From Candidatus Thorarchaeota archaeon (GTDB lineage: Archaea > Asgardarchaeota > Thorarchaeia > Thorarchaeales > Thorarchaeaceae), in the NCBI GenBank assembly GCA_048884965.1, contig JBHLQH010000001.1:192001-256000 (forward strand): a DNA stretch of 64,000 nt, given 5' to 3'. Position numbers and translations under genes: made by a program. Of the stretch, positions 25,813 to 46,230 are shown piece by piece. Position 1 is the stretch's first letter. Each line of letters opens with the position of its first letter. The notes under the pieces are model-generated. The model was not told the origin of the DNA and ran no database searches. It worked only from the letters and a program-made list of their open reading frames with translations.

Positions 25813-26172
25813 CTAATAGCCCCATTCCTGTCCAAGGCGCTGACGATACCAGCGTTGTCCCTTCTTAGTAAGTGAATATACACCCATGATGTCCTGAAGG
25901 AGTCCCATGCTTATCATATTCTGAACCACATTGTACAGGGAAGCATCAGCTGCTCCAGTTGCCTGCTTGAGTTGCTCGAAATCCATCTTACCCTCACGCT
26001 TGAGAGTCTGAGCGATATCGAACTTGCCAGTGGATCGTGTTTCTTGTCTGGTGACGATATGACCACAGTTGGTACAGATCATGTCTCCTTTATGGTCGTC
26101 ACGGGCTACTTCCTTCGCTCCACAGATCGGACAGGATGTCTTTGAGAATCTTAGTGAACGTCGGTGTGACAT
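25813..26172 (-). CDS. TFIIB-type zinc ribbon plus winged-helix protein
   Basis: CPICG...GDMICTNCGHIV; C-terminal wHTH ending YSLTKKG. Confidence 0.75.
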   Translation of the reverse strand: MSHRRSLRFSKTSCPICGAKEVARDDHKGDMICTNCGHIVTRQETRSTGKFDIAQTLKREGKMDFEQLKQATGAADASLYNVVQNMISMGLLQDIMGVYSLTKKGQRWYRQRLGQEWGY

Positions 26173-26234: not shown

Positions 26235-26750
26235 CTACTCGTCACCTGATTTGGTTTGGGCAAGCTTTCTGAAGAAGGCTTCGTAGTCTATCTCAAAGGC
26301 GACCCTACTCCCTGGACGTGCCTTACCACCTCTCCCATCAAGCTCGATATATCCCATATCGCTCAACTCACGAAGATCTGTTACTACGCTGCGTCTAGCT
26401 TTCCGCCGAAACTCACGAATCCTATCAATGCTGACCCAGTCCCCTTCCTGATATGCTAGGGTGATTACCACCAGCAAGGTTGCAGCCAATCGATCCGGTA
26501 AGGGTGAGTCCTCCAGCAAAATATCACTGCTAGTGTCAGTGTCTAAGTAGAACACATGACTTACTGGATTATGGCGAATAACAAGTCCAACAGGTTCGAC
26601 CTTGCGATGCAACTCCGCTAACCTCTGAAACAGGATATGCCTACCAGCTCCCTCTGGCAGTCCCAGTGCATCGAGCATATCATCTACACCAGCTCCAATG
26701 GGATCTCCTGTTCTTGTGAGTAGTTTCATGAGGATGGAGTACTCGTTCAT
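26235..26750 (-). CDS. KITE-like tandem winged-helix protein (ScpB/Nse1-3/JetB-like)
   Basis: Two wHTH: RLAELHRKVEPVGLVI...FYL and LAATLLVVITLAY...DLRELSDMGYIE. Confidence 0.6.
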   Translation of the reverse strand: MNEYSILMKLLTRTGDPIGAGVDDMLDALGLPEGAGRHILFQRLAELHRKVEPVGLVIRHNPVSHVFYLDTDTSSDILLEDSPLPDRLAATLLVVITLAYQEGDWVSIDRIREFRRKARRSVVTDLRELSDMGYIELDGRGGKARPGSRVAFEIDYEAFFRKLAQTKSGDE

Positions 26751-27898: not shown

Positions 27899-27923
27899 AG
27901 AATAAGTAGAGAAGGCATTTCCA

Positions 27924-28232: not shown

Positions 28233-28237
28233 TTCAA

Positions 28238-29707: not shown

Positions 29708-29836
29708 GATTACTCCTCAACGAGAGAAACCTATAGATATTAGCTGACCTTCTAAATCAGTTTTTTCCCAGATTGAAACGAATGACGTAAAAATCATGCA
29801 AACCAGAAATACAATTACTTTTCAAGACTGCTCAAG

Positions 29837-30517: not shown

Positions 30518-30600
30518 CTCTAGTATTTATTCAGCAAATGCATGCCTGCTCCTTGAACTAAGAGAGGGAGGATATAGGGATTTCGTCTGATTCTTGCACC

Positions 30601-32406: not shown

Positions 32407-32408
32407 GT

Positions 32409-34457
32409 TCAGACCCCCAGCGAGTACTCTCTGTTCGCATTGAAGACCAAGCTTTTCACAGTAACTGGAAACGCTTCGGTTTCTTTCAATGGTGCTCCAA
32501 TGTCTATCCAATCACCAGCTTTAAGGTCAAGTTCATCGATGACCAGAATGTTCTGTTGAATCGAGGTTTCATCACGAATTGCAAGACCCAACCTCTTTGC
32601 AACATCATATCCGAAGATTAGGATAATCATCTTGCTATTCGATACAGAATTTGGTAGAGCTTTCTCTATAGTCTTAGCAAAAGGTGCCAGCCATTCATCG
32701 CCAGAGTAAAGCCGCGAAAAGATCATCTCTTTGAAGTACAGCGCAACTGTGTCCTGGCCCTCGATCATGTCGAATGTTGTGAATGCTCTCTTGATTTCTC
32801 CCTCGAGTATCTCAGGTGTGAATTCTCTCATACCAAGATTTACAGGCAGAACCGGAACGTTTCCTACTGGGAGTTCAATGTCATCGTCAAAGAATGTGGT
32901 AGATCCGGAAACGGAGAGTGAAAAGGAACCGGCTCCGATTACTGTTGCTCGTATCTTATTCTCTGGCTCAACAATTGTGAGTCCATGTGCTTCTACAAGG
33001 ACTTTGATTTCCTGTGCCAGTATAACTCCGATGTCGTCGAAGTCGCCCTCATTGCCGTAGTACAACTCAGCAATCCCTCCTGAGAAGGAATAGACGTCTA
33101 CTGGTATAGTGAAGTCTAAATTATCTGTCATCATCAGTTCTTTAGCAATGACACTCTTAGCGGGACCAAGCATTGTTTCAACTAGTGCTTTTGCATATTC
33201 TCGAGCAATAGCTCTTGCATCACCTTCAGGAATTATATCTCCAATCTTGTAGTTCATTCCTAGCTCTTTCATAACGAGCTGAGTAGGGCTGTCTATCCTC
33301 CAGATCTTGAAAGATCTGTCAATTCCTAAGAGACGCCCTCCAACGTTTATACAACTTGTACTGAGGACCTTACCGTTGGACACAATCGCCAAGTTACTTG
33401 TCCCTCCTCCAATATCGATATGAAGAATGGTTTTCCTATCGCGGAATGACTGATCAACAATTCCACTCCCCATTGCACTGAGAAGGGACTCCAGATTGGG
33501 GCCTGCTGCAGCACTTACAAATTTTCCCGATTCTGAGGATAGACGGTTTACTATTTCAGCTGCATTCTGTTTCTTTGCGGTTTCACCTGTCACAACCACT
33601 GCGCCAGTTTCAACCATCTCAGGAGTGATTCCAGCTTTCTTGTACTCTTCTTGGCAGAATAGGATCACAGCATCGATATCAATATTGAATCTATCAATCA
33701 GGGGTGTGAAAATGATGTCACTCTCATAGATGATCTCGCGATTAACGAGATTGAAGCGGTTTGTGATATTGAACAAGCTTGTTTCTCTCTTTAGCGTAAG
33801 TTTGGAGAAGATAAGATGCGATGTTGAAGAACCGATATCTATTCCAACACTCAGGAACTTCATATACTCGACATTCTCAGATGGAATATGCATCATCAGC
33901 AGCTCAATCGGTTCAAATGGCTCCTCATTCTCAGCCACTTCCACTTTGTCTTCATCTCTCTTAGAGATCCTGATCTTCATACTCGACCCACAGTGTGCTG
34001 GGACCTCTACCTCTTCTTCTGAATTGAGAATCTCCATCTTCTTCTCACGGGGAACATCTATCACCTGTTCACAGACCGCACAATAGAATTCAAGATCAAT
34101 CGATCTATCGCTCCCGGGCATGACGGGACCTTTCTTAGGAGCGGCTGGTTTTGATTTTCTACGGTGTGCTCCTTCCCACGATGCTTTGACCATGTACTGA
34201 ATCATTGTCATGAGAGTATCAAATTCCTCACAAGGTTGGAGGACCGAAGATAATGCAGGTCTAAATGAAATAATGAGATTTCGCATGCCTTCTACTTCAG
34301 ATTCATCATTCTTCTCTTGATTCTCTACGAGTCTAACATACTCCTTCTCGAAGGCTTCTCCTATTAGTTCTGCATCCTCCGGAAGGTGTTTCTCGAAAAA
34401 GCCTTTGACGACACTAACGATGTGGTTCTTCATATTTTCGACCATGTCTTCAATCAT
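32409..34457 (-). CDS. eutA: EutA-like ASKHA ATPase, paralog 1, with N-terminal helical domain and Zn-ribbon-like insert
   Basis: Same EutA motifs; CAVC...HCG insert. Confidence 0.85.
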   Translation of the reverse strand: MIEDMVENMKNHIVSVVKGFFEKHLPEDAELIGEAFEKEYVRLVENQEKNDESEVEGMRNLIISFRPALSSVLQPCEEFDTLMTMIQYMVKASWEGAHRRKSKPAAPKKGPVMPGSDRSIDLEFYCAVCEQVIDVPREKKMEILNSEEEVEVPAHCGSSMKIRISKRDEDKVEVAENEEPFEPIELLMMHIPSENVEYMKFLSVGIDIGSSTSHLIFSKLTLKRETSLFNITNRFNLVNREIIYESDIIFTPLIDRFNIDIDAVILFCQEEYKKAGITPEMVETGAVVVTGETAKKQNAAEIVNRLSSESGKFVSAAAGPNLESLLSAMGSGIVDQSFRDRKTILHIDIGGGTSNLAIVSNGKVLSTSCINVGGRLLGIDRSFKIWRIDSPTQLVMKELGMNYKIGDIIPEGDARAIAREYAKALVETMLGPAKSVIAKELMMTDNLDFTIPVDVYSFSGGIAELYYGNEGDFDDIGVILAQEIKVLVEAHGLTIVEPENKIRATVIGAGSFSLSVSGSTTFFDDDIELPVGNVPVLPVNLGMREFTPEILEGEIKRAFTTFDMIEGQDTVALYFKEMIFSRLYSGDEWLAPFAKTIEKALPNSVSNSKMIILIFGYDVAKRLGLAIRDETSIQQNILVIDELDLKAGDWIDIGAPLKETEAFPVTVKSLVFNANREYSLGV

Positions 34458-34532
34458 CGATGATCATCCTCTGTAGCTCTCTTGCAAGATGTATTCGTAT
34501 CGACTTATAAAAGATATGTTTATATATTATAA

Positions 34533-34548
34533 AATACAATAATGTATT
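34533..34548. promoter_or_regulatory. Palindromic operator abutting the ATG of the divergent regulator
   Basis: AATACA-ATAA-TGTATT in the AT-rich divergent promoter. Confidence 0.45.
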
Positions 34549-35169
34549 ATGACTCAAAAGGACAGGATTCCATTTCTTTCAGTGCCAGCTGAATCAGGGG
34601 AGCAGGTCCAGCAACGGCTCGTAGAACTGAATTTGCTAGACCCACTTAGAAAAATGGAGAGTCGAAGTGGGAAGATATTCTTTCCTTTGGGGAAGGAGAT
34701 AGTCATGAGTAGTGTATTTCCCGAGATGGACACTGGGGACTGGATTATTGGCTTTAAGAGATTTAGACCAGTGGTATCGGAATCTAAAGCGGTCAAGCGG
34801 AAAAAGATACAAGGAAAAAATAGGGGTAGGAGGACTTTGGCGGAACGTGTAGAATCAATCTTTGAGTTCATAGATATGCAACCCGAACCATTTCCAAAAT
34901 CCGAGTTCCAGAAAATTGGTCTCAATCCAACAACTGCTGAAAGCTGGGTTCGCCTTATCGAGTATATCCAGAATCAGCCAATGATCAAAGTCACACAAAT
35001 GGGATCCTCGACATATATCGAACGACTTGAGAATAGATATCTTAGCATGCTTAGAAAGAGAGTTCTTAATCCAAGTCTGTCAATGAAAGAAAGGACCCAA
35101 ACGATGGAAGATTATATCGGTGCACTCATTACTCTCGAGAAAATCGAAGACGGACGAATCAAGAAATAA
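34549..35169 (+). CDS. Hypothetical protein: Trm5-N-like domain plus winged-helix-like domain
   Basis: FLSVPAESGEQVQQRLVELNLLD...KIFFPL resembles the Trm5/Taw2 D1 domain; FPKSEFQKIGLNPTTAESWV is HTH-like. Confidence 0.5.
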   Translation: MTQKDRIPFLSVPAESGEQVQQRLVELNLLDPLRKMESRSGKIFFPLGKEIVMSSVFPEMDTGDWIIGFKRFRPVVSESKAVKRKKIQGKNRGRRTLAERVESIFEFIDMQPEPFPKSEFQKIGLNPTTAESWVRLIEYIQNQPMIKVTQMGSSTYIERLENRYLSMLRKRVLNPSLSMKERTQTMEDYIGALITLEKIEDGRIKK

Positions 35170-35192
35170 TATCAAAGCAATCAATTTGATAG

Positions 35193-35849
35193 TTACAGCC
35201 TCAGTAGACGGAAGTCACACTTACCATTACCTTCTGCTATGATTTCTGTTCGTTCGAATCTAATCCACTTGGAGATGGCTTCCATCATCAAGTAATCGTA
35301 TTCGCATAGGATAGGTCCCAATTCTGGATGCTCATTTGCCTTGAAGATATCAAAGTAGAAGCACTTCGTGATGTCGAACCCTAGCTCATTATCATTATCT
35401 GCAACATATTCTAGATCGAAGTATTGATTCTCATAGTTGTTTTGATTTCCTGTCTTTATATACTCAACAATGGTCTTCCAAGTATCTTCACTGGATTCCG
35501 CGTGAGCCCTGAAGCTGTCAATCGTTTGCTGTATCATATCCTGATAGATTGCAAGAACATGCTGTTTGAATTCCTCAAATGAAACTTTTTCCTGTTGAAG
35601 TACCTCATATAATGCAAGTACAAATGTAGGATTTACTCCATGACGTTTTGAAACAAAATCTGGCATCAAGTCTGCATTCTTCGAGAATACTCTATAGAAA
35701 GCATCTTCGAATCGATTTGCACAATTGCCAGCTTTCCAAACACCATAGGTTTTGGTCAGGTGAGAATAGGTTAAAGTTTTGAGATATCCTACCATTTGTT
35801 CTATGAACTCAGCTTCTGACATGATTTTCTGGGCTAGTTTTTTCATCAT
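35193..35849 (-). CDS. ATC-hydrolase-like (V4R/H-NOX-fold) protein
   Basis: FDITKCFY...ELGPILCEYD...RTEIIAEG...CDF. Confidence 0.8.
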   Translation of the reverse strand: MMKKLAQKIMSEAEFIEQMVGYLKTLTYSHLTKTYGVWKAGNCANRFEDAFYRVFSKNADLMPDFVSKRHGVNPTFVLALYEVLQQEKVSFEEFKQHVLAIYQDMIQQTIDSFRAHAESSEDTWKTIVEYIKTGNQNNYENQYFDLEYVADNDNELGFDITKCFYFDIFKANEHPELGPILCEYDYLMMEAISKWIRFERTEIIAEGNGKCDFRLLRL

Positions 35850-35951
35850 ATTAACTCATCTTGTAGTAACGTATTGTGACTCCTTTCTGTGACCCTTTTT
35901 TGTGGCTTCGGTATATATACTAAATCTGGTACCATATACTTGTGAAATATC

Positions 35952-36053
35952 ATGGCTCTAGCAACTAACTACCGAACTGATTTCGTAAAGAAGAACAAAC
36001 AGGTCGTTTCGACCAAGGCTGTAGGTTATGCCTATGCAACTGTTGTGAGGTAA
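35952..36053 (+). CDS. Small peptide 1 (33 aa) MALATNYRTDFVKKNKQVVSTKAVGYAYATVVR
   Basis: Manual translation; TATA-like GTATATATAC about 35 nt upstream; paralogous to peptide 2. Confidence 0.6.
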   Translation: MALATNYRTDFVKKNKQVVSTKAVGYAYATVVR

Positions 36054-36059
36054 TTGGAA

Positions 36060-36149
36060 ATGGCTCTTTCCAAGAACACCTATTCACGAAGCACTACTCG
36101 TCCCAAGATTGTCACTGACGCAATCGCTCATGCTTATCTTAGGAGGTAG
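36060..36149 (+). CDS. Small peptide 2 (29 aa) MALSKNTYSRSTTRPKIVTDAIAHAYLRR
   Basis: Manual translation; GAGGT SD inside the end of peptide 1. Confidence 0.6.
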   Translation: MALSKNTYSRSTTRPKIVTDAIAHAYLRR

Positions 36150-36154
36150 ACCCA

Positions 36155-37480
36155 CTGACCCTCATTACGGCGGAAGAAGCTGAGGTTAGCAAACCTGGCT
36201 TCTCAACTATTCTTCACCGTCCTGACTATCTTCGCCTTTGGCTGGGACAGGTCGTATCAAATGTCGGCACCGCAATAAGCTCACTTGCTCTTCTGTTCTT
36301 TGCCTATTATCTGACTGGTTCTGCCCTTGCAATGGCTATCCTGTCAATCGCACGTGTCGTTCCTGTAGTCCTTTTCTCCGGATTCATTGGCGTCTATGTT
36401 GACCGATGGGATCGAAAGAAGATAATGATAGGTTCTGATCTTCTCCGGACACTCCTCATTCTCCTTATTCCTCTCTCTATCTATTTCCCCCAGAATCTAC
36501 CAACTATCTATTGGGTCTACATTCTAACATTCCTCTACGCCTCTGCTGATGCGTGGTTCTATCCTGCCAGAAATGCCTCGATACCCAATCTTGTTGAAGG
36601 AAAAGAGCTTGTCACCGCGAACTCGTTGTCACAAATGACTTTCCAAGTTGTTCAATTGACGATCCCTCCCTTGGGTGGTGTACTAATTGCACTTCTTGCC
36701 CCCGATTACTTTCTGGCATTTGCGATAAACTCCATTGCCTTTGTCTTGTCAGCAATTTCACTATCTGGTATCAAGACAAATCTAAGACCCCAAAATAGCA
36801 CATCTGAGAAGGAAGCAATGCTCTCCCAGATCTCTGCAGGTGCAAAGGTTGTGATTCAGAATGCAGTTCTCAGTTTCATCTTTGTATTTGCTATTCTGCT
36901 CGCAGTTTCTTCGGGTATTCTCAATGCTCTACTAGTACCTCATTTACAAGGCTATCTTGGGCTTTCTGAAGGGGAGATTGGTCTTCTTATGAGTCTAGGC
37001 GCAGCTTCTGGAATAGTGATAGCTCTTTATCTTGGAAAGAAATCCGACCTGAAGCATCCTCTTGCCATGGTGAACATTGCTGGGATAATTGCTGGTATTG
37101 CTGTTCTTGGTTTCTCTCTTGCTGAAGGATTCGTAGCTGTTGCCCTTTCGTGGACCATCATTGCATCTGTTGATGTGATCCTTAACATCCCCCTAAGTGT
37201 CATAATGCAAAAGCTTGTAGCAGACAAGATGCGTGGAAGAGTATTCTCATTGTTATCAGTGGCTTTCACATCCTTCCAAGTAATCGGAATGGGCATTGGA
37301 GGCATCTGGGCTGAAACGATTGGATCAACCATTCTCCCACTCTTCATATCTGGACTTGCTTTCTTCTTGGTGTCGATAATAGCTGCTCTCTATCTCAAGC
37401 AGTCCCACCTTGGTAGTCGTCTATCAATTATGCTGAGTTCCTCGACCGAAGATCAGTTGGTAGTTGCTAGAACCGATTAG
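36155..37480 (+). CDS. MFS exporter (DHA3/MefA-like), CTG start
   Basis: TM1 YLRLWLGQVVSNVG lies upstream of ATG 36332; AGGAGGT SD 7 nt before CTG 36155; GVYVDRWDRKKIM motif A; MRGRVFS. Confidence 0.85.
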   Translation: MTLITAEEAEVSKPGFSTILHRPDYLRLWLGQVVSNVGTAISSLALLFFAYYLTGSALAMAILSIARVVPVVLFSGFIGVYVDRWDRKKIMIGSDLLRTLLILLIPLSIYFPQNLPTIYWVYILTFLYASADAWFYPARNASIPNLVEGKELVTANSLSQMTFQVVQLTIPPLGGVLIALLAPDYFLAFAINSIAFVLSAISLSGIKTNLRPQNSTSEKEAMLSQISAGAKVVIQNAVLSFIFVFAILLAVSSGILNALLVPHLQGYLGLSEGEIGLLMSLGAASGIVIALYLGKKSDLKHPLAMVNIAGIIAGIAVLGFSLAEGFVAVALSWTIIASVDVILNIPLSVIMQKLVADKMRGRVFSLLSVAFTSFQVIGMGIGGIWAETIGSTILPLFISGLAFFLVSIIAALYLKQSHLGSRLSIMLSSSTEDQLVVARTD

Positions 37481-37482
37481 GT

Positions 37483-37555
37483 CGAGACCTCAGAGGCCCT
37501 CCTCAAAATAGGATGGGTCTCGGGGAGAGTGATCAGTGAGCCCTGATCCCTCCCC
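37483..37555. terminator. GC-rich double hairpin between convergent genes
   Basis: CGAGACC...GGTCTCG and GGGGAG-GATCAG...CTGATC-CTCCCC stems. Confidence 0.45.
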
Positions 37556-37561
37556 ACCCTC

Positions 37562-38221
37562 TTACTTTCTCAGAATCTCTTTCGATTCTTCGAAATATTC
37601 AAGATCCCCTTTTGAAATCAAAACTACAATGTAGAGGAAATGCTTCAGGAAGATATCGAAATCGCTAGAATCAAGAAGATCGGTTAAGAGAATCCTCTTC
37701 TTTCTGGGTATCTTCTTCAAGTATTTTTGAAGGTCATCGAGAAAGACCGAGTCTTCTGATGAGAATTTGAAGTCATCTGGAACCCCTGTAATCTCAGGTA
37801 TTTGCTCCTTAGGTAATGGCCTAGATAGTGCATCAAGATGCTGTATTACTCTGTCGAGTGATCTATTCAATGCATCTGGAGATATACGAGTCATTTTTAG
37901 TGGCTGTTTATAGACAATCAGACTGCTAAGGTCTCTAGGTTTGAGTTCCTTCAATCTACTTACATAAAGCTCGGGTGCTGCAAGAATCCTCGCTAGCTCC
38001 TGTACGCGAATTATCTTTGAGCCCAACATCTCATTGAGCATCTCATCAATATCAAGTCGCGAATCTACATCAGCTGTGAGCTTTCTTAGGTCTTGATACG
38101 CCTCAGCAAGACCCACATCAAGAGGATCGAGTTTTCCCTTCTCAACAGAGTCTACTAATTTCTGTACCTTTGATAGTAGCTTCTCTGTCGTTGTCAACTT
38201 CTCACCTCTATTGCTCCTCAA
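37562..38221 (-). CDS. Kleisin (ScpA/Nse4-like)
   Basis: LVDSVEKGKLDPLDVGL (ScpA N-terminal DP-x-D-V/I); C-terminal FLYIVVLISKGDL winged helix; directly downstream of SMC. Confidence 0.7.
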   Translation of the reverse strand: MRSNRGEKLTTTEKLLSKVQKLVDSVEKGKLDPLDVGLAEAYQDLRKLTADVDSRLDIDEMLNEMLGSKIIRVQELARILAAPELYVSRLKELKPRDLSSLIVYKQPLKMTRISPDALNRSLDRVIQHLDALSRPLPKEQIPEITGVPDDFKFSSEDSVFLDDLQKYLKKIPRKKRILLTDLLDSSDFDIFLKHFLYIVVLISKGDLEYFEESKEILRK

Positions 38222-41200
38222 ATTGAGGGCTTTCTATTACAACGGATGGCTCTGTTCCACCTGGTGATACTACACCAATTCGCTTGTCAGCATGTCTCAT
38301 CAGATGCGTGCTCTTTGCTGGAGTGAGTAGGATGAATTGACTCCTGCGTGATGAATCATGAAGAAGTCGACTCACCATTTCAGTATTAGTAGCATCAAGA
38401 AAGGTATCAATCTCATCCATCGCATAGACTGGAGCTGGATTAGATCTCTGCAATGCTAGTATCAGACCAATCGCAATAAGAGACCTCTCACCACCAGAAC
38501 CGGCACTCAATGCTCCGAATTCTTCTCCCTTGATTCTAGTCTTGAATTCAACACCATACTCCTGACTGGATGTGCTAAGCTGAAATTTCACTTCTCCTGC
38601 GAATCTTACGGTTCCAAGAATTAGGTTCACTTCTGTTTCTACCTTGTTCAGAACGTCATTCATTCCATCATGATACTGCTTCTTGATGTCCTTGACTGTT
38701 TCCTCAGCCTCTTTCAATTCCTCTTGGATATCCCCGACCTTAGTTTTCAATTCTAAAAGCCTGTCCTTGAGCTGATTCTCTGTGTGTGCGATTGTTTCAG
38801 AGATATCTCGATATTCATCTAATTGATGCCTGACACGGAGTAATTCATCCCTGACGGTATCAATCTCTCTAACGTTCTTCGGTCTTTTGCTCCCTTTGAG
38901 ATCTTCCTCGATGTTGGTTTTTTGATGTTGATATGTATCATGCTGTCGTTTCGATTGAAGAACTTGATACCTGCTGTTCTTCACCTGTAGATTCAACTCG
39001 AGTATCCTACCGCTTATTTCGCGAATGTTCCCTCGTATTTCCGTCTGTTGAGCAATAAGGTCATTGTACTTGACTGAGGTCTGATCCAAGCTCTCTCTTA
39101 GATTCTCGATGCTCTCCACAATCACAGAACCTTCGGATTTGGTAGAGCTTATCTCTTCACGAAGTTCATCAGCTCTTTCTGAGAGCATTCTTGTACTCTC
39201 CTCAAGTCCGCGAAGTTCCTGTCTCTTCGTTGCCTCATCTCTCTCAGTTACTTGGAGCTTTCCCTCAATTTCTGATAGCTGACTTCTAAGCTTTCGATAT
39301 CTCATTCTAATTGCAGACTGCTCTCCAACCAATCTACTGCGTTCAGGTGGTTGAGTCGAGTCCAATTTCTTAAGGACCCTTTCAGCCTCTCCAATCTTAC
39401 TTTGTAAGTCTTTGATATCATCATCCAAGGCTACTATCCGTTCTTCCTGTTGAGGAATCATATCACGAAGTTTCTTTCTCCGCTCCCATGTTCCACTCCA
39501 TCTAGTGATTTGACTGATTAGATCCATTATCTCTTCTCGCTCTTGAGTAACCTTCTCAATTCCACTCATGACTTCTGTCACTCGATTCTGTGCGAATTTG
39601 AGTTCTGTTTCTGCATCTCCTAGCCTTGCCTGAAGGGGTGCTGTTGCGATCACACCAGTGGGTTCTTGTCTTGGATAACTCACAATTCTCGTTTCTGAGG
39701 GTTCCATTCTTTGTCCCTCTAGGGAAACTGATAGCAAACCTTCTTTCTCTGACACTCTTGTGGAATCTTGGAACTTCGATACAACAACATAATCACCAAA
39801 TGCTTGTCTCAACTTGACAACAGATTCATCGTCTAGCTTGAGAAGTTCCCAAAGCCATCCCTCAACGCCCTTCCTCTTTGGTAGTTCAGGCTTTTCTGCA
39901 AGGGATTTACTTGATCGAAGAAGAATGATGGGTGAGCTGGCTTCAATTTCATTTCGAAGTCGTGTAAGTAGAGTGTACTCGGCTTCGTCCTCAACTAGGA
40001 ACGAGAACGCCATTTGACTTGGAATGACTGCTTCAAGTGCGGACGCGTATTCATCACTACCTGTAAGGAATTCAATTATTGGTCCTGTAACGGTTTCCAA
40101 CTTGTGTTCATGAACAGCCTCTTTCAGCTTTAGGACATTATCAGGTATCCTCTTCGAGCTCTCTGTTAATCTAACCTTGATCTCGTCTATCTCCTTCTGA
40201 AGTTGAGCCACTTGGCTTACGAATCTGAATCTTGACTCATTTAGATTAGAGAGTTCTCGTTCAGCCTGTGCTTTCTTCTTTACTAGTTCCTTTTCGTCGG
40301 TTCCTTCAAGAACAGTCCAAACATGCCCCCATTTATTCTCGATCGCTTGTAATTCAGCTTCATCCACCTGAAGCTTCTCTTGGAGGCTCCTGAAAAGAAG
40401 GTCCTTTCCTTTCAGATCGACCTGAAGCGCCCTGAAAGTTCCCAATGCATCTGACCTTCTGGTATTCCAATCTGCAAATGCTGCCAGCTCGTTTTCTATT
40501 CTAGTTCGTTCCTCTTCAATTTCATCTAGACTTAGAGTGGTCTGTTTCTGATCTTCTAACATGTGCTCCTTCGCTGAGCTTACTCTTCGGAGGTCCTCCT
40601 TTGTCTTGTCCATCTTACGTTTATCTACAGTGATTCTTTTCTCCAGCTCTCTAATCTCATCAAGAGTAGACTTAGTTTCCGATTCTATCTTGGATAATCT
40701 CCTCTCCTCCTCTTCAATTCGGGCGGTGATACTTCCCATCTCCCGCTGAAGTAGAGAGGTCTCCTTCTCAATTACTGTAGCCTTTTGCTCTTCCTTTGTG
40801 ATGGTTTCCTCGAATTTGGAGGTTTCCTCTAGGATCTCTCCAAGACCAAGTTCTTTCTCTTCTATTTCCTGCTTGATATCATCAATCCTTTTCGTTAAAT
40901 CATCTAGAGTAGCCCATTTGACTTCTTTATCCAATTCTTTCTCTTGAGTGAGAAGCTCTCTCTTGCGTTGAAGTCGATCAACATCATGCTGGAGCAGCTC
41001 AATTTCTCGTTCTACAATCTTCGCCTCGCTAGTGGCTGCTTCCAATCTCTCACGACTAAACTGAACTTTCACTTCTTCCATCAGAATTCGGTCACGAAGA
41101 ACACTAAGTCCCGTTCCCTCTTCCACTAATTTCCTCACCTCTATTGGATCCATATCTCTGAGAGCATTGATTCTCTCCTGAGGCATGAAAACTAGCGGAT

Positions 41201-41579
41201 TATCCATATCAAAACCCAGACTATCGACAAGTGTTTGAAGCTCTGCAGCCTTTACCCTTTTGCCATCAACATACGCCCTTGGTATTCCGTCTCTGGTGAT
41301 CTTTCTAGTGAAGGTTCGAAACTGACCATTAACCCGTACCTTGACTTCGACCTCTGCTGAATTGGCACCATGGCGAATAAAATCACTCCATTTGGAGTAT
41401 CTATTCTCTCTCTGATTAGAGCCTAGAGCGAATTTGATTGCATGAAAGATGGATGTCTTTCCTGATCCATTTGGTCCGACGATCACAGTGAGACCTGAAT
41501 CAAACTGAACCAACCCCTCATAGAATGAGAGGAAATTCTTCAATTTGACCGATTCAATGTTTGCGTCGAACTTTCTCAA
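38208..41579 (-). CDS. smc: SMC protein, Smc5/6 (coalescin)-like
   Basis: GPNGSGKT, Q-loop NPLVFMPQERI, long coiled coils, central hinge, GSGGERS, MDEIDTFLD, QFILLTP. Confidence 0.9.
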   Translation of the reverse strand: MRKFDANIESVKLKNFLSFYEGLVQFDSGLTVIVGPNGSGKTSIFHAIKFALGSNQRENRYSKWSDFIRHGANSAEVEVKVRVNGQFRTFTRKITRDGIPRAYVDGKRVKAAELQTLVDSLGFDMDNPLVFMPQERINALRDMDPIEVRKLVEEGTGLSVLRDRILMEEVKVQFSRERLEAATSEAKIVEREIELLQHDVDRLQRKRELLTQEKELDKEVKWATLDDLTKRIDDIKQEIEEKELGLGEILEETSKFEETITKEEQKATVIEKETSLLQREMGSITARIEEEERRLSKIESETKSTLDEIRELEKRITVDKRKMDKTKEDLRRVSSAKEHMLEDQKQTTLSLDEIEEERTRIENELAAFADWNTRRSDALGTFRALQVDLKGKDLLFRSLQEKLQVDEAELQAIENKWGHVWTVLEGTDEKELVKKKAQAERELSNLNESRFRFVSQVAQLQKEIDEIKVRLTESSKRIPDNVLKLKEAVHEHKLETVTGPIIEFLTGSDEYASALEAVIPSQMAFSFLVEDEAEYTLLTRLRNEIEASSPIILLRSSKSLAEKPELPKRKGVEGWLWELLKLDDESVVKLRQAFGDYVVVSKFQDSTRVSEKEGLLSVSLEGQRMEPSETRIVSYPRQEPTGVIATAPLQARLGDAETELKFAQNRVTEVMSGIEKVTQEREEIMDLISQITRWSGTWERRKKLRDMIPQQEERIVALDDDIKDLQSKIGEAERVLKKLDSTQPPERSRLVGEQSAIRMRYRKLRSQLSEIEGKLQVTERDEATKRQELRGLEESTRMLSERADELREEISSTKSEGSVIVESIENLRESLDQTSVKYNDLIAQQTEIRGNIREISGRILELNLQVKNSRYQVLQSKRQHDTYQHQKTNIEEDLKGSKRPKNVREIDTVRDELLRVRHQLDEYRDISETIAHTENQLKDRLLELKTKVGDIQEELKEAEETVKDIKKQYHDGMNDVLNKVETEVNLILGTVRFAGEVKFQLSTSSQEYGVEFKTRIKGEEFGALSAGSGGERSLIAIGLILALQRSNPAPVYAMDEIDTFLDATNTEMVSRLLHDSSRRSQFILLTPAKSTHLMRHADKRIGVVSPGGTEPSVVIESPQFEEQ

Positions 41580-41583
41580 TGGT

Positions 41584-42654
41584 TTACCTTCCCATTATTC
41601 TGCTTAATCTATCACTGGTGCGCTTTGCTCGCATCAATCTGGTAAGTCTATCTTCTGCGTTCCCTGTTAGGAGGAATGGGTACCTGCTCAAGAACTCTGC
41701 ATCTGCTGGAGCTAATGGTAGGCTCGCATTCAAGGACTCGATGACACGTTGTGTTCCTTGGAAATCATCACCAACGGCCATTAGATACAGTTGGTCCAAG
41801 AAGTCATCAGGATAAGAGTGCTCGATTGACTCATAGGTAGGAACATGACTCCCCTGAGTTGTACGTGAAATTCTCTGACGTGTTTCACTTCGTGATATTC
41901 CAATTATTCCGCTCGAATCCAAAATCTGTTCGAGCTTGCCTCTGGGTATCGGGTTTGATTCCTCGGGCACATCTGTGTGAAGAGTTACTGAGAGATGCAC
42001 TAAATCAGAAAATCCCCAGCCTTCTGTGATTTCCGCCAGAGTTGTTGGATCCAAGTCTTTTCTTCCCTCTAAAAGCGATTCAAGCACTTTTACCCTCTCC
42101 TCCATTTGTATGGTTTCAAAGATAAAAACACGGTCAAAAGTCGTAAGTATCTCATCTTCTATCCGTTCGGGGAAGACAGTTGCCGCAACTACCGCGATCT
42201 CATGTTGATCCCATGTTGTTTCTCTAAGAGCACTAAGAAAGACAGAAGCATATTCCTTGCCTTTCTCTGCCAGGGCATCTAGCTTGTCGATATAGATGAC
42301 AGCTGGCGAATTTCGCTTGGCGAATTCAACTAATGTTCTTATGGCATCAGATACTTGGTGAGCTTCTCCGAATGCATGAGTCAGTCTTAAGCGAATGATC
42401 TTCAGTGGCGTTTCATATGCAATATGGTGAACAAAGGATTCAAAGTCGGTTCCTGCCGCTCCAAGGAGGAGTACTCTTCCACCAAAGATCAATCCCTTGC
42501 CATGCAGCTTCTCTCGGAAGCTACCATATTTGGCAAGCACACTCTGGAACTTCTTTGCCTTATCTAGAACCGAAGGCTGACTAAATCGGTCAGCGTCCAA
42601 ATCTTCTGGTTCTTCTAGGATTACAACCTCGGTAATGGCGTCTGGTCTACTCAC
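41584..42654 (-). CDS. Inactivated classical-clade AAA+ protein (CDC48/PAN/Vps4-like pseudo-ATPase)
   Basis: VLLLGAAGTDFE (no GKT), IYIDKLDAL (E to K), AATV, LTTFDR, LAEITEGW. Confidence 0.75.
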   Translation of the reverse strand: MSRPDAITEVVILEEPEDLDADRFSQPSVLDKAKKFQSVLAKYGSFREKLHGKGLIFGGRVLLLGAAGTDFESFVHHIAYETPLKIIRLRLTHAFGEAHQVSDAIRTLVEFAKRNSPAVIYIDKLDALAEKGKEYASVFLSALRETTWDQHEIAVVAATVFPERIEDEILTTFDRVFIFETIQMEERVKVLESLLEGRKDLDPTTLAEITEGWGFSDLVHLSVTLHTDVPEESNPIPRGKLEQILDSSGIIGISRSETRQRISRTTQGSHVPTYESIEHSYPDDFLDQLYLMAVGDDFQGTQRVIESLNASLPLAPADAEFLSRYPFLLTGNAEDRLTRLMRAKRTSDRLSRIMGR

Positions 42655-42812
42655 TGTGCACCCCTCGGCGTCATGCTAGTTTTGAAAATGAAGCCATATT
42701 ATCCCTTCGAAGCCTGCGTTTTTTTCGCGCCTTTCCATTTTTCGATTCGCGCCCTGACCGTATCAACCATAAGCCCTCAAGCTCCCGATATTTGTGCTCG
42801 AGATGAGGGAAA

Positions 42813-44528
42813 ATGACAAAGACAACTGAAAGCCTCAGGGAAAGCATATGGCAGGTGATCACTACAGTTGAGAGTAGAGGTCTCTTCGTCCACTCTGAGG
42901 AACTTCCCATCAAGTATAAGGCACAGGCGCGCTCAAGCTCCAAGATTAGCTCAGTACGACTACCACTTATTGCAGGAGCATGCGTTTTGAATTCACTGGT
43001 CCCTCGCTCAGCAATGCTCCTCGTAGGTGGACATGGCGGCGGAAAGACCACCCTTATCAAACTCTTGGGACGCATGTTAACTGGTAGGAGCCTCGATGAG
43101 ATTGATGAGGGTATGCTCAGAGGACATCCCCAGCTAACGGAGGAGAAGATGGTTGCAACTCTACGACCCGGTCCGCTCATGAAGGATGGAGTCGAAGTCG
43201 TTGTATGGCGTCAGTTCGTAACTAACTTCTGGAAGATTATCGATGAAGCCAATCGTTTGACACCACATGCTCAGAATATTCTTCTTTCCATGCTAGCTGA
43301 AGGTGAATTGAAGTATTACGATGAAGTCATGCACTGCGATGATTACTGTCTTTATGCAACGATGAATCCCACTGATAGTGGCACCTTTGACCTTGCACCG
43401 CCTTTCCTTGACCGTTTTGGTATGGCTGTCCCTATAACTATGCCAACCATCGATGATCTCGAACTCATACTTTCCTCGCGTGATGATCGCCTTTTTGGCT
43501 ATGATGAGATGTGGCAAGTACCGGCGATTACTACCGAGGAGGATTTGCTGACAATATGGAACCTTGCAGACAAGGTACCAGTATCACAGGAGGCATCAGA
43601 GTTCATGAGATCTCTTGTGCGTGAATTTGGGGCGTGTATCCGGGTTGATAAGAGTCAGACTCACTCCCTGACTGTTGAAACTGGTCTCTGCGATAGTTGT
43701 CACTATAACACAGCCAAGAGTGTGTGCAATAAGGTCATCATTCCTCTCAGCGTTCGCGCGGTCAAAGACCTCAATCGCTATAGTAAGGCTGCTGCATGGC
43801 TTATCGGAGCTCCTGAAGTAGGCATAGAACTAGTCAAATCCTTGGCACCACTAATATTCTGGCACCGTACTCGTTTTGTGACTGAAGGTATTGAGAAATC
43901 TCCCTTCTTTGGAAACTCCTTTGAATATACGAAGCATCTAGTAGAGCTTGCCTCTTCAAGATTCGCACAGCGCGAGCCTGCCATTCGACTAATGGACAAA
44001 CTGAAACAGGGTGAAGGTGATAAGACAATACTTGAGGAGCTATCAGAAATGGGCAAGAGCGACCTTCTTGTTCGACTCGATTATATCAAGTTCGCAAAGG
44101 AATTGCAGAAATCGACCTATGCGGCGATGGTGAAGAACATAGAGAAAGCAGTGAAGTCCTCAAGTGTGAAGGACCTAACAGAGCTACAGCAGCAGATATT
44201 GGAAACGACAGATTTTCCAAATCGTAGTATGCTCCTAAGCCGAATATCTGAAGCCCTACACAAGCTAACACTCTCCCAATTCTCACTCACGTTTGAGCAA
44301 TGGCAGGATCTCTGGACAACGATAAGCTTGAAGATTCCCAAGATGACAAGCATTCTCAAAGAGACCCTCAAGCCACCTAAGCGAAAGGTCGTTCGGACTG
44401 ATGGCGTTACGCTTGTTGTCTATGTAACCGGAAGTACGCCCGAATCACCTGTCTTCCTTGAAATCTCAGGCGGCACACAAGCATTGGATCTACGAAAGGA
44501 AATAGAGAAACACATTTCATCCGAGTGA
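42813..44528 (+). CDS. MoxR-like AAA+ ATPase with Cys-rich insert
   Basis: GGHGGGKTT, IIDEANRL, ATMNP, PFLDRF, C...CDSC...C, LSVR. Confidence 0.82.
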   Translation: MTKTTESLRESIWQVITTVESRGLFVHSEELPIKYKAQARSSSKISSVRLPLIAGACVLNSLVPRSAMLLVGGHGGGKTTLIKLLGRMLTGRSLDEIDEGMLRGHPQLTEEKMVATLRPGPLMKDGVEVVVWRQFVTNFWKIIDEANRLTPHAQNILLSMLAEGELKYYDEVMHCDDYCLYATMNPTDSGTFDLAPPFLDRFGMAVPITMPTIDDLELILSSRDDRLFGYDEMWQVPAITTEEDLLTIWNLADKVPVSQEASEFMRSLVREFGACIRVDKSQTHSLTVETGLCDSCHYNTAKSVCNKVIIPLSVRAVKDLNRYSKAAAWLIGAPEVGIELVKSLAPLIFWHRTRFVTEGIEKSPFFGNSFEYTKHLVELASSRFAQREPAIRLMDKLKQGEGDKTILEELSEMGKSDLLVRLDYIKFAKELQKSTYAAMVKNIEKAVKSSSVKDLTELQQQILETTDFPNRSMLLSRISEALHKLTLSQFSLTFEQWQDLWTTISLKIPKMTSILKETLKPPKRKVVRTDGVTLVVYVTGSTPESPVFLEISGGTQALDLRKEIEKHISSE

Positions 44529-44538
44529 AGGTGGTCCT

Positions 44539-46230
44539 ATGGAACGAGCTGAAGGTCTTGAAACTGCCGCACTCAAAGCATGGTTCCAAGCGATCTCAGA
44601 TTTCTACAACCCTCCCTTGCCAGATCCCGTCATAGAACACGATGAGGACGCATCCTCATTCTTTTACATCGATTCTAAGAGTTGGACTGTTCATTTGAAC
44701 ACCGCTGGTGTTCCCTTGAATCTTTCAGTCAACGAATCGGAATCATACCTTCGATCTGTCTGCCACCATGAGATCCAGCATTATCTGCTATGCCCATACG
44801 ATGGCGTGACGAATGGCATGTTGTTCGCAGGTGCAAGAAAGCATCTCTCAGATAACCTTGCGATGTTCGTTTGCAATATATTTGCAGACCTTGTTGTAGA
44901 CTCCAATCTTCTCAAAAGATACCAGATAGTGACTCACTCAAGAATTACGACATCCATTCACGACTCCTCGCTAAGGACACGAGATCACAGCCCACTTTGG
45001 AAGCTAGTCATTGCGATCTATCGCTGGATGTGGGGTTTTCCTATCCCCACAGGTGTTGATATTGATCAAGCGACCATCCAAACGGCGAACCTAATCACAG
45101 AGACTGCCAAGGAGTATCTTGAGAACGAGTCTCGATGGCCAAAGGCTACTGAGATGATTGCGAAGATTGTGTCAGAATGGCTTCCAGAACAAGAAGAGGA
45201 ATTTGGTGGGACCGGATTGCAAGAGGGACCTGAAGATGGGTCGATTCTGGTTCCTGCTGACCTTGATGGAGTAATGGGTAGTCCGACTGAGGATCGGAAT
45301 GGGGATCGCGCCAGAAAATGCATTTCACCTGAAGAAGTTTCAAATATCGATGAAGAGATGGAGCGATTAGCAGTTGAAGTGGAAGAGCGTGGGGGTAGCC
45401 TGAAAGACCTTGAAGCTGTCTATATCATAGCTGGTGCTGGCACGGGCAATAAGGATTGGATTCGTTTCTGGTACCGAGCGAAAGTTAGAGGGGTGCTCAG
45501 ATTTCAGGTTCGTCAAATGAGACCTCAAGGGGCAGTCCCTCTCAACCCGAGTCCTTGGCGACTTGGTGACCCTATTGAAGAATTGGATGTTGTGCAATCT
45601 CTACAGACATTTCCTGTATTGGTACCAAACATGTCGACACGCAGGTGGCTCAGAACGGTTTACTATGGTGAGGACCCTCGGAGCGAATTACCCGATCTTC
45701 TTGTGGTACTCGATTCCAGTGGCTCAATGACCTGGTCAATGGGCAAGAGTGACCTTAGGGGTGCCTATCATGTCGCATTGGTTTCTGCTTTAGCTGCAGT
45801 TGATACGGCACTTCGAAAGGGCAGTAGTATTTCTGCGATTAACTTCTCAGGAAATATCCTGAAGTGTGGGTGGACTCGTGACCGTTCCGAAATCGAACGG
45901 ACACTGCTCGCATATCAAGGTGGTGGAACCGTTATGCCAATCAATACCATCCAGGAGCTGTGTGATGAGTCCCTCTCTTCGGTGATGAGCGTCATTATCA
46001 CAGACGTAGGAATATCTAATTGGGGTCCATTTGTAAAAACAATTGAGAAACTCTCGAAGCAAGGACATAAGATGTTCATCTTCCATATCGGTGGTAAGAA
46101 AGAGAAGGTCTCGAAATCTGTCAATCAACTCATGCAGGCAGGAGCTTTTGTTATACCCGTTTCGAGTGTAAGAGACTTACCTGGACTCGTTGTGTCGGAA
46201 GTTCATCGAACATACATGCCCAGTACCTAA
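44539..46230 (+). CDS. HExxH (zincin-like) plus vWA domain protein
   Basis: HHEIQH, NIFADLVVD; MIDAS DSSGSM, GGGT, ITD. Confidence 0.82.
   Translation: MERAEGLETAALKAWFQAISDFYNPPLPDPVIEHDEDASSFFYIDSKSWTVHLNTAGVPLNLSVNESESYLRSVCHHEIQHYLLCPYDGVTNGMLFAGARKHLSDNLAMFVCNIFADLVVDSNLLKRYQIVTHSRITTSIHDSSLRTRDHSPLWKLVIAIYRWMWGFPIPTGVDIDQATIQTANLITETAKEYLENESRWPKATEMIAKIVSEWLPEQEEEFGGTGLQEGPEDGSILVPADLDGVMGSPTEDRNGDRARKCISPEEVSNIDEEMERLAVEVEERGGSLKDLEAVYIIAGAGTGNKDWIRFWYRAKVRGVLRFQVRQMRPQGAVPLNPSPWRLGDPIEELDVVQSLQTFPVLVPNMSTRRWLRTVYYGEDPRSELPDLLVVLDSSGSMTWSMGKSDLRGAYHVALVSALAAVDTALRKGSSISAINFSGNILKCGWTRDRSEIERTLLAYQGGGTVMPINTIQELCDESLSSVMSVIITDVGISNWGPFVKTIEKLSKQGHKMFIFHIGGKKEKVSKSVNQLMQAGAFVIPVSSVRDLPGLVVSEVHRTYMPST

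What the first reader, a model, noticed from the sequence alone, without database searches (positions are those of the whole stretch)
37562..42654. Smc5/6-like SMC-kleisin operon led by a catalytically dead CDC48-type AAA+ protein
Seen: three tightly packed minus-strand genes (4-bp gap; 14-bp overlap). The SMC has Q-loop NPLVFMPQERI, signature GSGGERS, a C-terminal QFILLTP and a hinge without the GX6GX3GG motif. Knowledge: these features match eukaryotic Smc5/6 and crenarchaeal coalescin rather than canonical Smc. The first gene keeps the classical AAA fold but has lost the Walker A lysine, the Walker B glutamate (E to K), sensor 1 and the Arg finger. Inference: the pseudo-ATPase could be a structural or adaptor subunit of an archaeal Smc5/6-type complex, a partner I do not know from characterised SMC systems.
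Basis: partly seen in the sequence, partly recalled or inferred. Interest (0 to 1): 0.8.

Follow-up and report, generated by a model that had tools for sequence, protein, structure and literature searches.

The report
Dead AAA+ partner of Asgard second SMC
In this Asgard archaeon the second, non-canonical SMC chromosome-organising complex always comes with an extra gene for a Cdc48-like AAA+ protein that has lost its ATPase motifs but kept a highly conserved tail domain, pointing to an undescribed subunit of the archaeal relatives of eukaryotic Smc5/6.

Summary
Window 37562-42654 (minus strand) encodes a 356-aa classical-clade AAA+ protein without Walker A, Walker B, sensor 1 or Arg fingers, then a divergent 1123-aa SMC, then a 211-aa kleisin-like protein. 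One detail is wrong: the kleisin most likely starts at 38197, so there is a 10-nt gap, not a 14-bp overlap.

The genome also has a canonical Smc-ScpA-ScpB operon elsewhere, so this is a second SMC system. It fits the published archaeal "SMC5/6-related" class, but I could not test grouping with eukaryotic Smc5/6.

The new part is the AAA gene. It sits directly upstream of SMC-kleisin-KITE in every sufficiently long locus of about 60 Asgard loci examined. It is almost always single-copy, and it occurs in the same families that carry this KITE. Its 77-aa C-terminal helical domain is its best-conserved part. One Odinarchaeota homologue keeps all ATPase motifs.

A MoxR-like ATPase and an HExxH-VWA protein are also linked, and in two lineages all six genes form one operon. 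The KITE gene lies 10.8 kb downstream here.

Physical binding is not shown. Neither SMC-evolution paper I read mentions an AAA partner.

The parts
41584..42654 (-). Pseudo-AAA+ protein (356 aa). It has a Cdc48-type alpha/beta core with degenerate Walker A/B, sensor 1 and Arg fingers, an AAA lid (about 181-270), and a highly conserved C-terminal helical domain (about 280-356).
   Evidence: Pfam PF00004 43.5 bits. AF2 model pLDDT 84.7; Foldseek best matches are p97, FtsH, PAN, Vps4 and Trip13, E about 4e-12. The C-terminal domain is 70% identical to Thor-type homologues, against 32-39% for the rest of the protein.
38208..41579 (-). Divergent SMC ATPase (1123 aa), the second SMC paralogue of the genome, of the 'SMC5/6-related' archaeal type.
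   Evidence: SMC_N 140 bits spanning residues 8-1105; SMC_hinge 29 bits. TIGR02169 scores 290 bits against a cut-off of 729. No hinge glycine motif. The canonical Smc-ScpAB operon is elsewhere.
37562..38197 (-). Kleisin-like protein (211 aa; the alternative upstream TTG at 38221 is probably not used).
   Evidence: No Pfam family. Conserved family of 211-222 aa that always follows the SMC gene. The only PDB hit of its profile is the P. furiosus ScpA C-terminal winged helix, 4i99_C, at a non-significant E of 0.89. Start codon and Shine-Dalgarno sequence.
26235..26750 (-). KITE-like tandem winged-helix protein (171 aa). It is the fourth operon gene in relatives. Here it is displaced 10.8 kb downstream on the same strand.
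   Evidence: 63% identical to the gene that directly follows the kleisin in a Hermodarchaeota locus. It is adjacent to the kleisin or 0.3-3 kb downstream in other loci. Weak wHTH hits; one family member hits SMC_ScpB at 1.2e-6 and one hits DUF4194.
42655..42812 (.). 158-bp divergent intergenic region shared by the AAA-SMC operon and the MoxR-VWA pair; presumably holds the promoters.
   Evidence: Sequence read. The same divergent arrangement is found in all Thor-, Hermod- and Hod-type loci.
42813..44528 (+). MoxR-like AAA_5 ATPase (571 aa) with an intact Walker A, linked to the operon.
   Evidence: PF07728 47.7 bits. Walker A GGHGGGKT at residue 72. It is 67-83% identical across Thor-, Hermod- and Hod-type loci, the most conserved gene of the cluster. 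It is co-directional and first in a six-gene operon in L098 and L101.
44539..46230 (+). HExxH / VWA (MIDAS) protein (563 aa), partner of the MoxR-like ATPase.
   Evidence: Weak VWA_2 hit. HExxH at 77 and DSSGS MIDAS at 392, both conserved at 90% or more in 40 orthologues. Its stop overlaps the AAA start by 4 nt in L098.
25813..26172 (-). TFIIB-type Zn-ribbon protein (119 aa) immediately downstream of the KITE gene; possibly associated.
   Evidence: PF08271 30.8 bits. A Zn_Ribbon_TF gene lies downstream of the KITE in L010, L013 and L019.

Best explanation
The three genes belong to a conserved Asgard module that encodes a second SMC complex. The complex is an SMC homodimer with a kleisin and a KITE, of the published 'SMC5/6-related' archaeal type. 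It carries a dedicated fourth component derived from a Cdc48-like AAA+ ATPase.

In this Thorarchaeota-type lineage the nucleotide site, the pore loop and the Arg fingers have decayed, so the protein cannot work as a translocase. What selection preserves is the lid and, above all, a 77-aa basic helical C-terminal domain.

The most likely role is a non-catalytic scaffold or regulator that docks on the SMC complex or on DNA through that domain. It might act as a loading or unloading factor or as an adaptor. In this lineage it may couple the complex to the neighbouring, catalytically intact MoxR-like ATPase and its HExxH-VWA partner.

Shown: fold, motif loss, conservation pattern, strict synteny, phyletic co-occurrence, and a separate canonical Smc-ScpAB. 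Inferred: physical association, the docking role of the C-terminal domain, any link to MoxR-VWA, and function in chromosome maintenance.
For: - AAA->SMC->kleisin adjacency holds in all Thor-, Hermod- and Hod-type loci long enough to show it.
- It also holds in Odin, Hel and other distant lineages at only 15-28% AAA identity.
- A profile of the C-terminal domain hits 213 of 400 Asgard genomes, with one match in all but two of them.
- The KITE profile hits strongly in the same families (f1, f2, f5, f15, f21, f22). Both profiles are absent from f3, f4, f6, f8, f10, f11, f13, f14 and others.
- The degenerate P-loop G-x-x-G-T-D-F is itself conserved in 59 homologues. The protein is intact, about 356 aa, in the more than 100 close homologues listed, so it is not a pseudogene.
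- The C-terminal domain is 70% identical across Thor-type homologues against 32-39% for the rest. It folds confidently on its own, pLDDT 84-92.
- An Odinarchaeota homologue has intact Walker A/B, pore loop, sensor 1 and RR, and scores 137 bits to Cdc48 D2. This shows descent from an active remodeller.
- In L098 and L101 the genes MoxR-VWA-AAA-SMC-kleisin-KITE lie head to tail on one strand, with 4-nt overlaps at the VWA/AAA and AAA/SMC junctions of L098.
- The canonical Smc-ScpA-ScpB operon is on contig C35.
Against: - No direct evidence of binding.
- The C-terminal domain has no recognisable structural relative, so its role is guessed.
- In Loki-type genomes the MoxR orthologue lies 0.5-1.25 Mb from the SMC operon, so the MoxR-VWA link is lineage-specific.
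- A few genomes have the KITE without a detected AAA, or the reverse (G323, G331, G364; family f16 has weak KITE hits and no AAA).
- The active form is known from only one Odinarchaeota MAG.
- Related genomes are not independent samples.
Confidence: 0.75

Rival explanations
1. The pseudo-AAA belongs functionally to the MoxR-like ATPase / HExxH-VWA pair. Together they would form a chaperone or protease-like module acting on some other substrate, and the gene merely shares a neighbourhood with the SMC operon.
For: MoxR and VWA are adjacent to the AAA gene in all Thor-, Hermod- and Hod-type loci. They come directly before it on the same strand in L098 and L101, and a VWA fragment does so in the Hel locus L018. 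The MoxR-like protein is the most conserved gene of the cluster.
Against: In Odin, f21, f22 and f23 genomes the AAA gene still directly precedes the SMC, while MoxR/VWA are absent from the flanks sampled on either side (4.5-8 kb upstream of the AAA gene). Their orthologues lie 0.5-1.25 Mb away. AAA/SMC adjacency is the invariant feature, not AAA/MoxR adjacency.
Confidence: 0.08
2. The module is an SMC-based anti-mobile-element defence system, like Wadjet or Lamassu, rather than a housekeeping chromosome-maintenance complex.
For: SMC, kleisin and KITE plus an extra subunit is the Wadjet layout. PADLOC gives partial matches of the SMC to mad3, LmuB and JetC, and of the AAA to IetA. NCBIfam's best hit for the Odin AAA is the anti-phage ATPase IteA, 204 bits against a cut-off of 510.
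Against: - All PADLOC hits are generic head or AAA matches. The kleisin, KITE, MoxR and VWA proteins have none.
- No nuclease or effector gene is present.
- The system is nearly always single-copy, found in nearly all members of several Asgard families, and sits in a stable genomic context. That pattern fits vertical housekeeping inheritance, not a patchy defence island.
Confidence: 0.05
3. The AAA protein still binds or hydrolyses nucleotide through a non-canonical site, or it joins mixed rings with an active AAA+ such as Cdc48. In that case it is an active remodeller subunit rather than a passive scaffold.
For: The degenerate P-loop G-x-x-G-T-D-F is strongly conserved rather than random. Inactive subunits inside active AAA rings are known; the FtsHi/Ycf2 motor is among the top Foldseek matches. 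The Odin relative looks fully active.
Against: The Walker A Lys/Thr, the Walker B Glu, both Arg fingers and the pore loop are all missing together. Two lineages (f15, f5) have even deleted part of the alpha/beta core while keeping the lid and the C-terminal domain.
Confidence: 0.1

Closest known systems
Archaeal 'SMC5/6-related' SMC-kleisin-kite operons (van Hooff et al., bioRxiv 10.1101/2024.01.07.573240; Yoshinaga & Inagaki 2021, PMC8665677)
   Same: A second SMC paralogue sits beside a canonical Smc-ScpAB in an Asgard genome. The gene order is SMC-kleisin-kite. The kleisin and kite are not ScpA- or ScpB-like at the sequence level.
   Different: Those studies describe three subunits. Neither the main text nor the supplements of the preprint mention an AAA, Cdc48 or MoxR partner. 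Here a fourth, AAA+-derived gene is a constant member. In several lineages a MoxR-VWA pair joins as well.
Eukaryotic Smc5/6 holo-complex (Smc5, Smc6, Nse4 kleisin, Nse1/Nse3 KITEs, Nse2, Nse5/6)
   Same: SMC + kleisin + KITE core with additional lineage-specific accessory subunits. The hinge lacks the canonical glycine motif. From memory, an SGGERS signature and a 'TP' in place of the H-loop also occur in Smc5/6.
   Different: This system is presumably homodimeric, with a single SMC gene. It has no Nse2, Nse5 or Nse6. No AAA+ subunit is known in eukaryotic Smc5/6. Similarity searches do not place this SMC closer to Smc5/6 than to Smc1-4.
Cdc48/p97/VAT and other classical-clade AAA+ unfoldases
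   Same: Same alpha/beta + lid fold. The Odin family member aligns to Cdc48 D2 with all catalytic motifs.
   Different: This protein has a single AAA module, no N-domain, and a unique C-terminal helical domain. The catalytic and pore-loop residues are lost in most lineages.
MoxR-VWA chaperone pairs (RavA-ViaA, CbbQ-CbbO, NorQ-NorD, BchI-BchD)
   Same: An AAA_5 ATPase is encoded next to a MIDAS-containing VWA protein.
   Different: The VWA protein carries a conserved N-terminal HExxH motif. The pair is genomically tied to an SMC operon, which to my knowledge is not described for MoxR systems.
Wadjet (JetABCD) / MksBEFG
   Same: An SMC-kleisin-KITE operon extended by a fourth dedicated gene.
   Different: The fourth Wadjet gene is a Toprim nuclease. 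Here it is an AAA+ pseudo-enzyme. The distribution looks vertical and housekeeping.

Membership tests
SMC protein superfamily architecture | Split ABC head (Walker A, Q-loop, signature, Walker B/D-loop) joined by a long coiled coil and a hinge | tested here: met
   PF02463 140 bits spanning residues 8-1105; PF06470 hinge 29 bits against a cut-off of 22.5. Motifs located.
Canonical prokaryotic Smc (TIGR02169/TIGR02168) | Score above the NCBIfam equivalog cut-off | tested here: not met
   290 bits against 729, and 248 against 567. The C35 paralogue scores 350-430 bits to Pyrococcus Smc heads, against 95-103 for this protein.
Canonical prokaryotic Smc (TIGR02169/TIGR02168) | Hinge G-x6-G-x3-GG motif | tested here: not met
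   A regex search finds none in the window SMC. The motif is present at residue 660 of the C35 Smc.
Canonical prokaryotic Smc (TIGR02169/TIGR02168) | ScpA (PF02616) and ScpB (PF04079) partners in the operon | tested here: not met
   The window kleisin and KITE do not hit PF02616 or PF04079. The C35 operon hits both, at 40 and 110 bits.
Archaeal SMC5/6-related complex (sensu van Hooff et al.; Yoshinaga & Inagaki) | Second SMC paralogue co-existing with the canonical Smc, in an SMC-kleisin-kite gene cluster | tested here: met
   (two SMC systems). (cluster order).
Archaeal SMC5/6-related complex (sensu van Hooff et al.; Yoshinaga & Inagaki) | SMC is the phylogenetic sister of eukaryotic Smc5+Smc6 | not testable with these tools
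   No eukaryotic SMC sequence could be obtained by reference for a tree. Similarity proxies are inconclusive. The family profile scores Smc2 258, Smc3 252, Smc6 175 and Smc5 173 bits. The N-terminal 400 aa and the C-terminal 74 aa are not closest to Smc5/6. Relative to the canonical paralogue, which does not list Smc5/6 among its top 60 hits, this protein is far less biased towards Smc1-4.
Archaeal SMC5/6-related complex (sensu van Hooff et al.; Yoshinaga & Inagaki) | Kleisin related to Nse4; kite of the Nse1/3 type | tested here: inconclusive
   The kleisin profile hits only the ScpA C-terminal winged helix at E 0.89. The KITE profile hits generic wHTH proteins; single members hit ScpB or DUF4194.
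Classical-clade AAA+ ATPase (PF00004) | AAA+ alpha/beta domain plus helical lid | tested here: met
   PF00004 43.5 bits against 21.2. Foldseek E 4e-12 to p97, FtsH and PAN. The lid matches Yta7, Pex1/6 and Rix7 at Z 7.2-7.8.
Classical-clade AAA+ ATPase (PF00004) | Walker A GxxGxGK[ST] and Walker B hhhhDE | tested here: not met
   GAAGTDFES and IYIDKLD in the window protein. The family consensus is G-P-x-G-T-D-F and x-E-K-L-D/E.
Classical-clade AAA+ ATPase (PF00004) | Sensor 1 polar residue, SRH arginine fingers, aromatic pore loop 1 | tested here: not met
   Sensor 1 is V. The positions aligned to p97 R359 and R362 are lost. The pore loop is not conserved in the family. All are present in the Odin homologue.
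Rad50 | Zn-hook apex instead of a hinge; full-length match to Rad50 models | tested here: not met
   An SMC hinge domain is detected. Rad50 models match only the first 90 or so residues.
Wadjet / Lamassu defence SMC systems | JetA/JetB/JetD or LmuA/LmuC partners next to the SMC | tested here: inconclusive
   PADLOC has no hit for the kleisin, KITE, MoxR or VWA proteins, and only partial generic hits for the SMC and the AAA. No nuclease was found in the neighbourhood.

The most novel reading that the evidence does not exclude
The AAA+-derived protein is an ancestral, Asgard-wide fourth subunit of the Smc5/6-related complex. It began as a Cdc48-like ATP-driven loader or unloader of the SMC-kleisin ring, a state still seen in Odinarchaeota. 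In most lineages it became a pseudo-enzyme adaptor, and in several of them it recruits a MoxR-like ATPase and an HExxH-VWA protein as the new motor. That would make this a previously unrecognised class of SMC regulator in the closest prokaryotic relatives of eukaryotes.
Probability: 0.25. Interest if true: 0.85.

Novelty: new variant of a known kind. Interest (0 to 1): 0.72.

Why it matters
Smc5/6 is the least understood eukaryotic SMC complex, and its archaeal relatives were recognised only recently as three-gene operons. A constant, operon-encoded, AAA+-derived fourth component in Loki-, Thor-, Odin-, Hel-, Hermod- and Hod-type Asgard genomes changes the presumed composition of that ancestral complex.

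It gives a concrete and easily testable candidate for how these rings are loaded, unloaded or regulated. Two of the genomes that carry the operon are complete single-contig assemblies (4.36 and 6.04 Mb). I could not tell whether they are cultured strains.

It is also a clear natural case of an enzyme turning into a pseudo-enzyme within one orthologous family. Finally, it links MoxR-VWA modules to chromosome-organising machinery for the first time, as far as the literature I could search shows.

Tried and rejected
- Complex prediction with the SMC head (residues 1-225 and 905-1123), the kleisin, and the AAA protein (25-356) as partner, all given as alignments. Score 0.00, verdict 'no answer'. 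This is no evidence either way.
- Fold search of the lid plus C-terminal-domain model. Foldseek against the PDB gave nothing at E <= 0.001. VIA-align wide matched only the lid to AAA lids. The C-terminal domain reached only Z 5.0-5.6 (PI3KC3-C2, V-nitrogenase), which is background level for helical segments.
- Sequence-similarity proxies for Smc5/6 affinity: the whole-family profile, the N-terminal 400 aa and the C-terminal 74 aa against the PDB. None ranks Smc5/6 first. The QFILLTP/GSGGERS motif argument is therefore not a test.
- The search for related loci with the most diverse AAA alignment failed because no stretch was conserved enough. I repeated it with the Thor-type alignment.
- One genome search was wasted by a mistyped E-value threshold.
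- Searching the 5.8-billion-protein set with the Odin C-terminal region found only itself. The spread of the active form is therefore unknown.
- I considered whether an inversion had split an MFS gene between the kleisin and the KITE, and rejected it. tblastn shows a complete MFS gene at 36173-37510, convergent with the kleisin, as in other Thorarchaeota loci.
- I could not test whether TACK-archaeal Smc5/6-related operons carry the AAA gene, because no handle to those genomes was available.

Full report
**What is in the window.**
Three minus-strand ORFs fill 37562-42654.
- 41584-42654 (356 aa, GTG start) scores 43.5 bits to Pfam AAA.
- 38208-41579 (1123 aa, TTG start) has SMC_N spanning both ends and a weak SMC hinge.
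- 37562-38221 has no family.

The 4-nt gap between the AAA and SMC genes is real. The 14-bp overlap of the SMC and the third gene is probably an ORF-calling artefact. All 27 aligned homologues begin eight codons later, and the TTG at 38197 is preceded by GAGGTGA. That gives a 211-aa product starting 10 nt after the SMC stop.

**The AAA protein.**
Alignments to NVL and Cdc48 give these readings:
- The P-loop reads GAAGTDFES, with Gly, Lys and Thr replaced.
- Walker B reads IDKLD, with Glu replaced by Lys.
- Sensor 1 is Val.
- Both SRH Arg-finger positions are lost.

An AlphaFold2 model built on 59 homologues has a mean pLDDT of 84.7. Its best Foldseek matches are p97, FtsH, PAN, Vps4 and Trip13, at E about 1e-11. 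The fold is therefore a classical-clade AAA+.

The gene is not decaying. Homologues of about 356 aa form a tight family, with 181 hits at 42-78% identity among those listed, named Thor-, Hermod-, Hod- and Promethearchaeota. The degenerate P-loop G-P-x-G-T-D-F is itself conserved.

The most conserved part is a C-terminal region outside the AAA module, residues about 280-356. Its motifs run YPDDFLDQLYLMAVG ... RYPFLL ... RLTRLLRAKK..DRL.RIMGR. It is 70% identical to Thor-type relatives, against 32-39% for the N-terminus, core and lid. For distant relatives the figures are 28% against 11-17%. Modelled with the lid alone it is confidently helical, pLDDT 84-92. It has no convincing structural relative.

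**Family history.**
A profile search of 1.84 billion representatives found only about a dozen clusters that match full length. After those come generic multi-domain Cdc48-like proteins.

The distant full-length members are informative.
- One Odinarchaeota protein (371 aa) keeps GPPGTGKT, LDEFD, a YLG pore loop, sensor-1 Asn and WRRFDE. It scores 137 bits to the Cdc48 D2 domain.
- A Helarchaeales member keeps only Walker A.
- Loki-type and other members are degenerate.
- Two lineages (f15, f5) have deleted part of the alpha/beta core yet keep the lid and the C-terminal domain.

The family thus descends from an active Cdc48-type ATPase and became a pseudo-enzyme in most lineages. The active form is known from a single MAG.

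**Synteny.**
I examined contigs found by exact look-up, 46 loci from GTDB species genomes and six further genomes from other Asgard families. The AAA gene is immediately followed by the SMC and then the kleisin-like gene wherever the contig is long enough.

A 145-190-aa tandem winged-helix protein comes next, either directly or 0.3-3 kb downstream on the same strand. It is KITE-like: weak wHTH hits, one member hitting SMC_ScpB at 1.2e-6 and one hitting DUF4194.

In this window the KITE orthologue is at 26235-26750, 63% identical to the Hermodarchaeota one. Between it and the kleisin lie a convergent MFS gene, as in other Thorarchaeota, and about 9 kb of extra genes.

**Phyletic pattern.**
A profile of the C-terminal domain matches 213 of 400 Asgard genomes, with one match in all but two of them. 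By family the counts are f1 65/85, f21 14/14, f22 122/135, f23 4/4 and f15 3/5. There are none in f8 (0/31), f10, f11, f13, f14 and others.

The KITE profile, run on genomes at least 90% complete, is strong in the same families: f1 34/39, f15 3/3, f21 5/5, f22 84/89. It is absent from the same set. The exceptions are few: f16 has weak KITE hits and no AAA, and three f1 genomes have one gene without the other. Related genomes are not independent samples, but the co-distribution agrees with the synteny.

**Which SMC is this?**
The genome has a second full-length SMC on contig C35. It is followed by proteins that hit ScpA (40 bits) and ScpB (110 bits). It has a strong hinge match and the hinge glycine motif. 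The window operon is therefore a separate, second SMC system.

Two papers describe this situation. TACK and Asgard archaea carry a canonical Smc complex plus an 'SMC5/6-related' SMC-kleisin-kite operon. By exclusion and gene order the window operon is that second type.

I could not test the defining phylogenetic feature, because no eukaryotic sequence was available by reference. Similarity proxies are inconclusive.
- The family profile scores Smc2 and Smc3 above Smc5 and Smc6.
- The N-terminal 400 aa and the C-terminal 74 aa are closest to archaeal Smc or Rad50 heads.
- The only positive signal is relative. The canonical paralogue scores 259 bits to Smc2 and does not list Smc5/6 among its 60 best hits. 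The window SMC scores 74-75 bits to Smc2/3 and 54-57 to Smc5/6.

**The MoxR-VWA neighbours.**
Two genes are transcribed divergently from the AAA gene. One is a 571-aa AAA_5 (MoxR-like) ATPase with an intact Walker A. The other is a 563-aa protein with a conserved HExxH and a MIDAS DSSGS motif.

This pair is present in the same arrangement in all Thor-, Hermod- and Hod-type loci, and the MoxR-like protein is the most conserved gene of the cluster, 67-83% identical. In two other families (L098, L101) the order MoxR-VWA-AAA-SMC-kleisin-KITE lies head to tail on one strand, with 4-nt overlaps at the VWA/AAA and AAA/SMC junctions of L098. A Helarchaeales contig has a VWA fragment directly upstream of the AAA gene.

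In Loki-type genomes the MoxR orthologue exists, at 44-46% identity, but lies 0.5-1.25 Mb away. The Odin locus has none nearby. The link is recurrent but not universal.

**Interpretation.**
The best reading is that the AAA-derived protein is a dedicated accessory component of the Asgard second SMC complex. In this lineage it would act without ATP hydrolysis, through its lid and C-terminal domain. A defence-system reading is unlikely: there is no nuclease, no specific PADLOC hit and a vertical, almost always single-copy distribution. A role only with MoxR-VWA is unlikely because AAA-SMC adjacency persists where MoxR-VWA is elsewhere.

Physical association remains untested. Neither SMC-evolution paper nor its supplements mention an AAA, Cdc48 or MoxR partner, and full-text searches found nothing else.

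Earlier notes of this scan had already flagged the five-gene locus, the displaced KITE and the shorter kleisin. I checked each of those points here and they hold.

Noticed in passing
window 42813-46230 (+): A MoxR-like AAA_5 ATPase and an HExxH/MIDAS-VWA protein are transcribed divergently from the AAA gene. The pair is syntenic in all Thor-, Hermod- and Hod-type loci and fused into a six-gene co-directional operon in two other Asgard families.
   Followed up: yes
window 25813-26172 (-): A TFIIB-type Zn-ribbon protein sits directly downstream of the KITE gene. A Zn_Ribbon_TF gene lies downstream of the KITE in loci L010, L013 and L019, so it may belong to the module or regulate it.
   Followed up: partly
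window 26822-36170: About 9 kb of genes lies between the MFS gene and the KITE gene and is not present at this position in other Thorarchaeota loci. It holds an MFS_2 C-terminal fragment (26822-27178), a TPR protein, a 4Fe-4S protein, two tandem EutA-like paralogues (30601-34457), a Trm5_N-domain protein and an ATC-hydrolase-like protein.
   Followed up: partly
window 36173-37510 (+): tblastn shows that the MFS transporter gene extends upstream of the first ATG/GTG/TTG of its ORF (36332). It probably uses a non-standard start codon. It is convergent with the kleisin gene, as in other Thorarchaeota.
   Followed up: partly
window 42671-43180 (-): A 169-aa ORF overlaps the start of the MoxR-like gene on the opposite strand. 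Its composition is low-complexity and rich in Ser, Pro and Arg. It is probably not a gene.
   Followed up: no
G000 contig C35:26041-30903 (locus L015): The canonical Smc (1196 aa), ScpA (238 aa) and ScpB (227 aa) operon of the same genome.
   Followed up: yes
L016:14859-15065 (-): In the Odinarchaeota contig a histone-fold gene (PF00125) lies about 1 kb downstream of the AAA-SMC-kleisin-KITE operon.
   Followed up: no
G357:C56:12322-12825; G115:C1:202027-202485; G005:C74:238-675: The KITE matches in three other Asgard genomes contain a single in-frame stop (TAA or TGA). This may be sequencing error, a start or stop boundary, or recoding.
   Followed up: no
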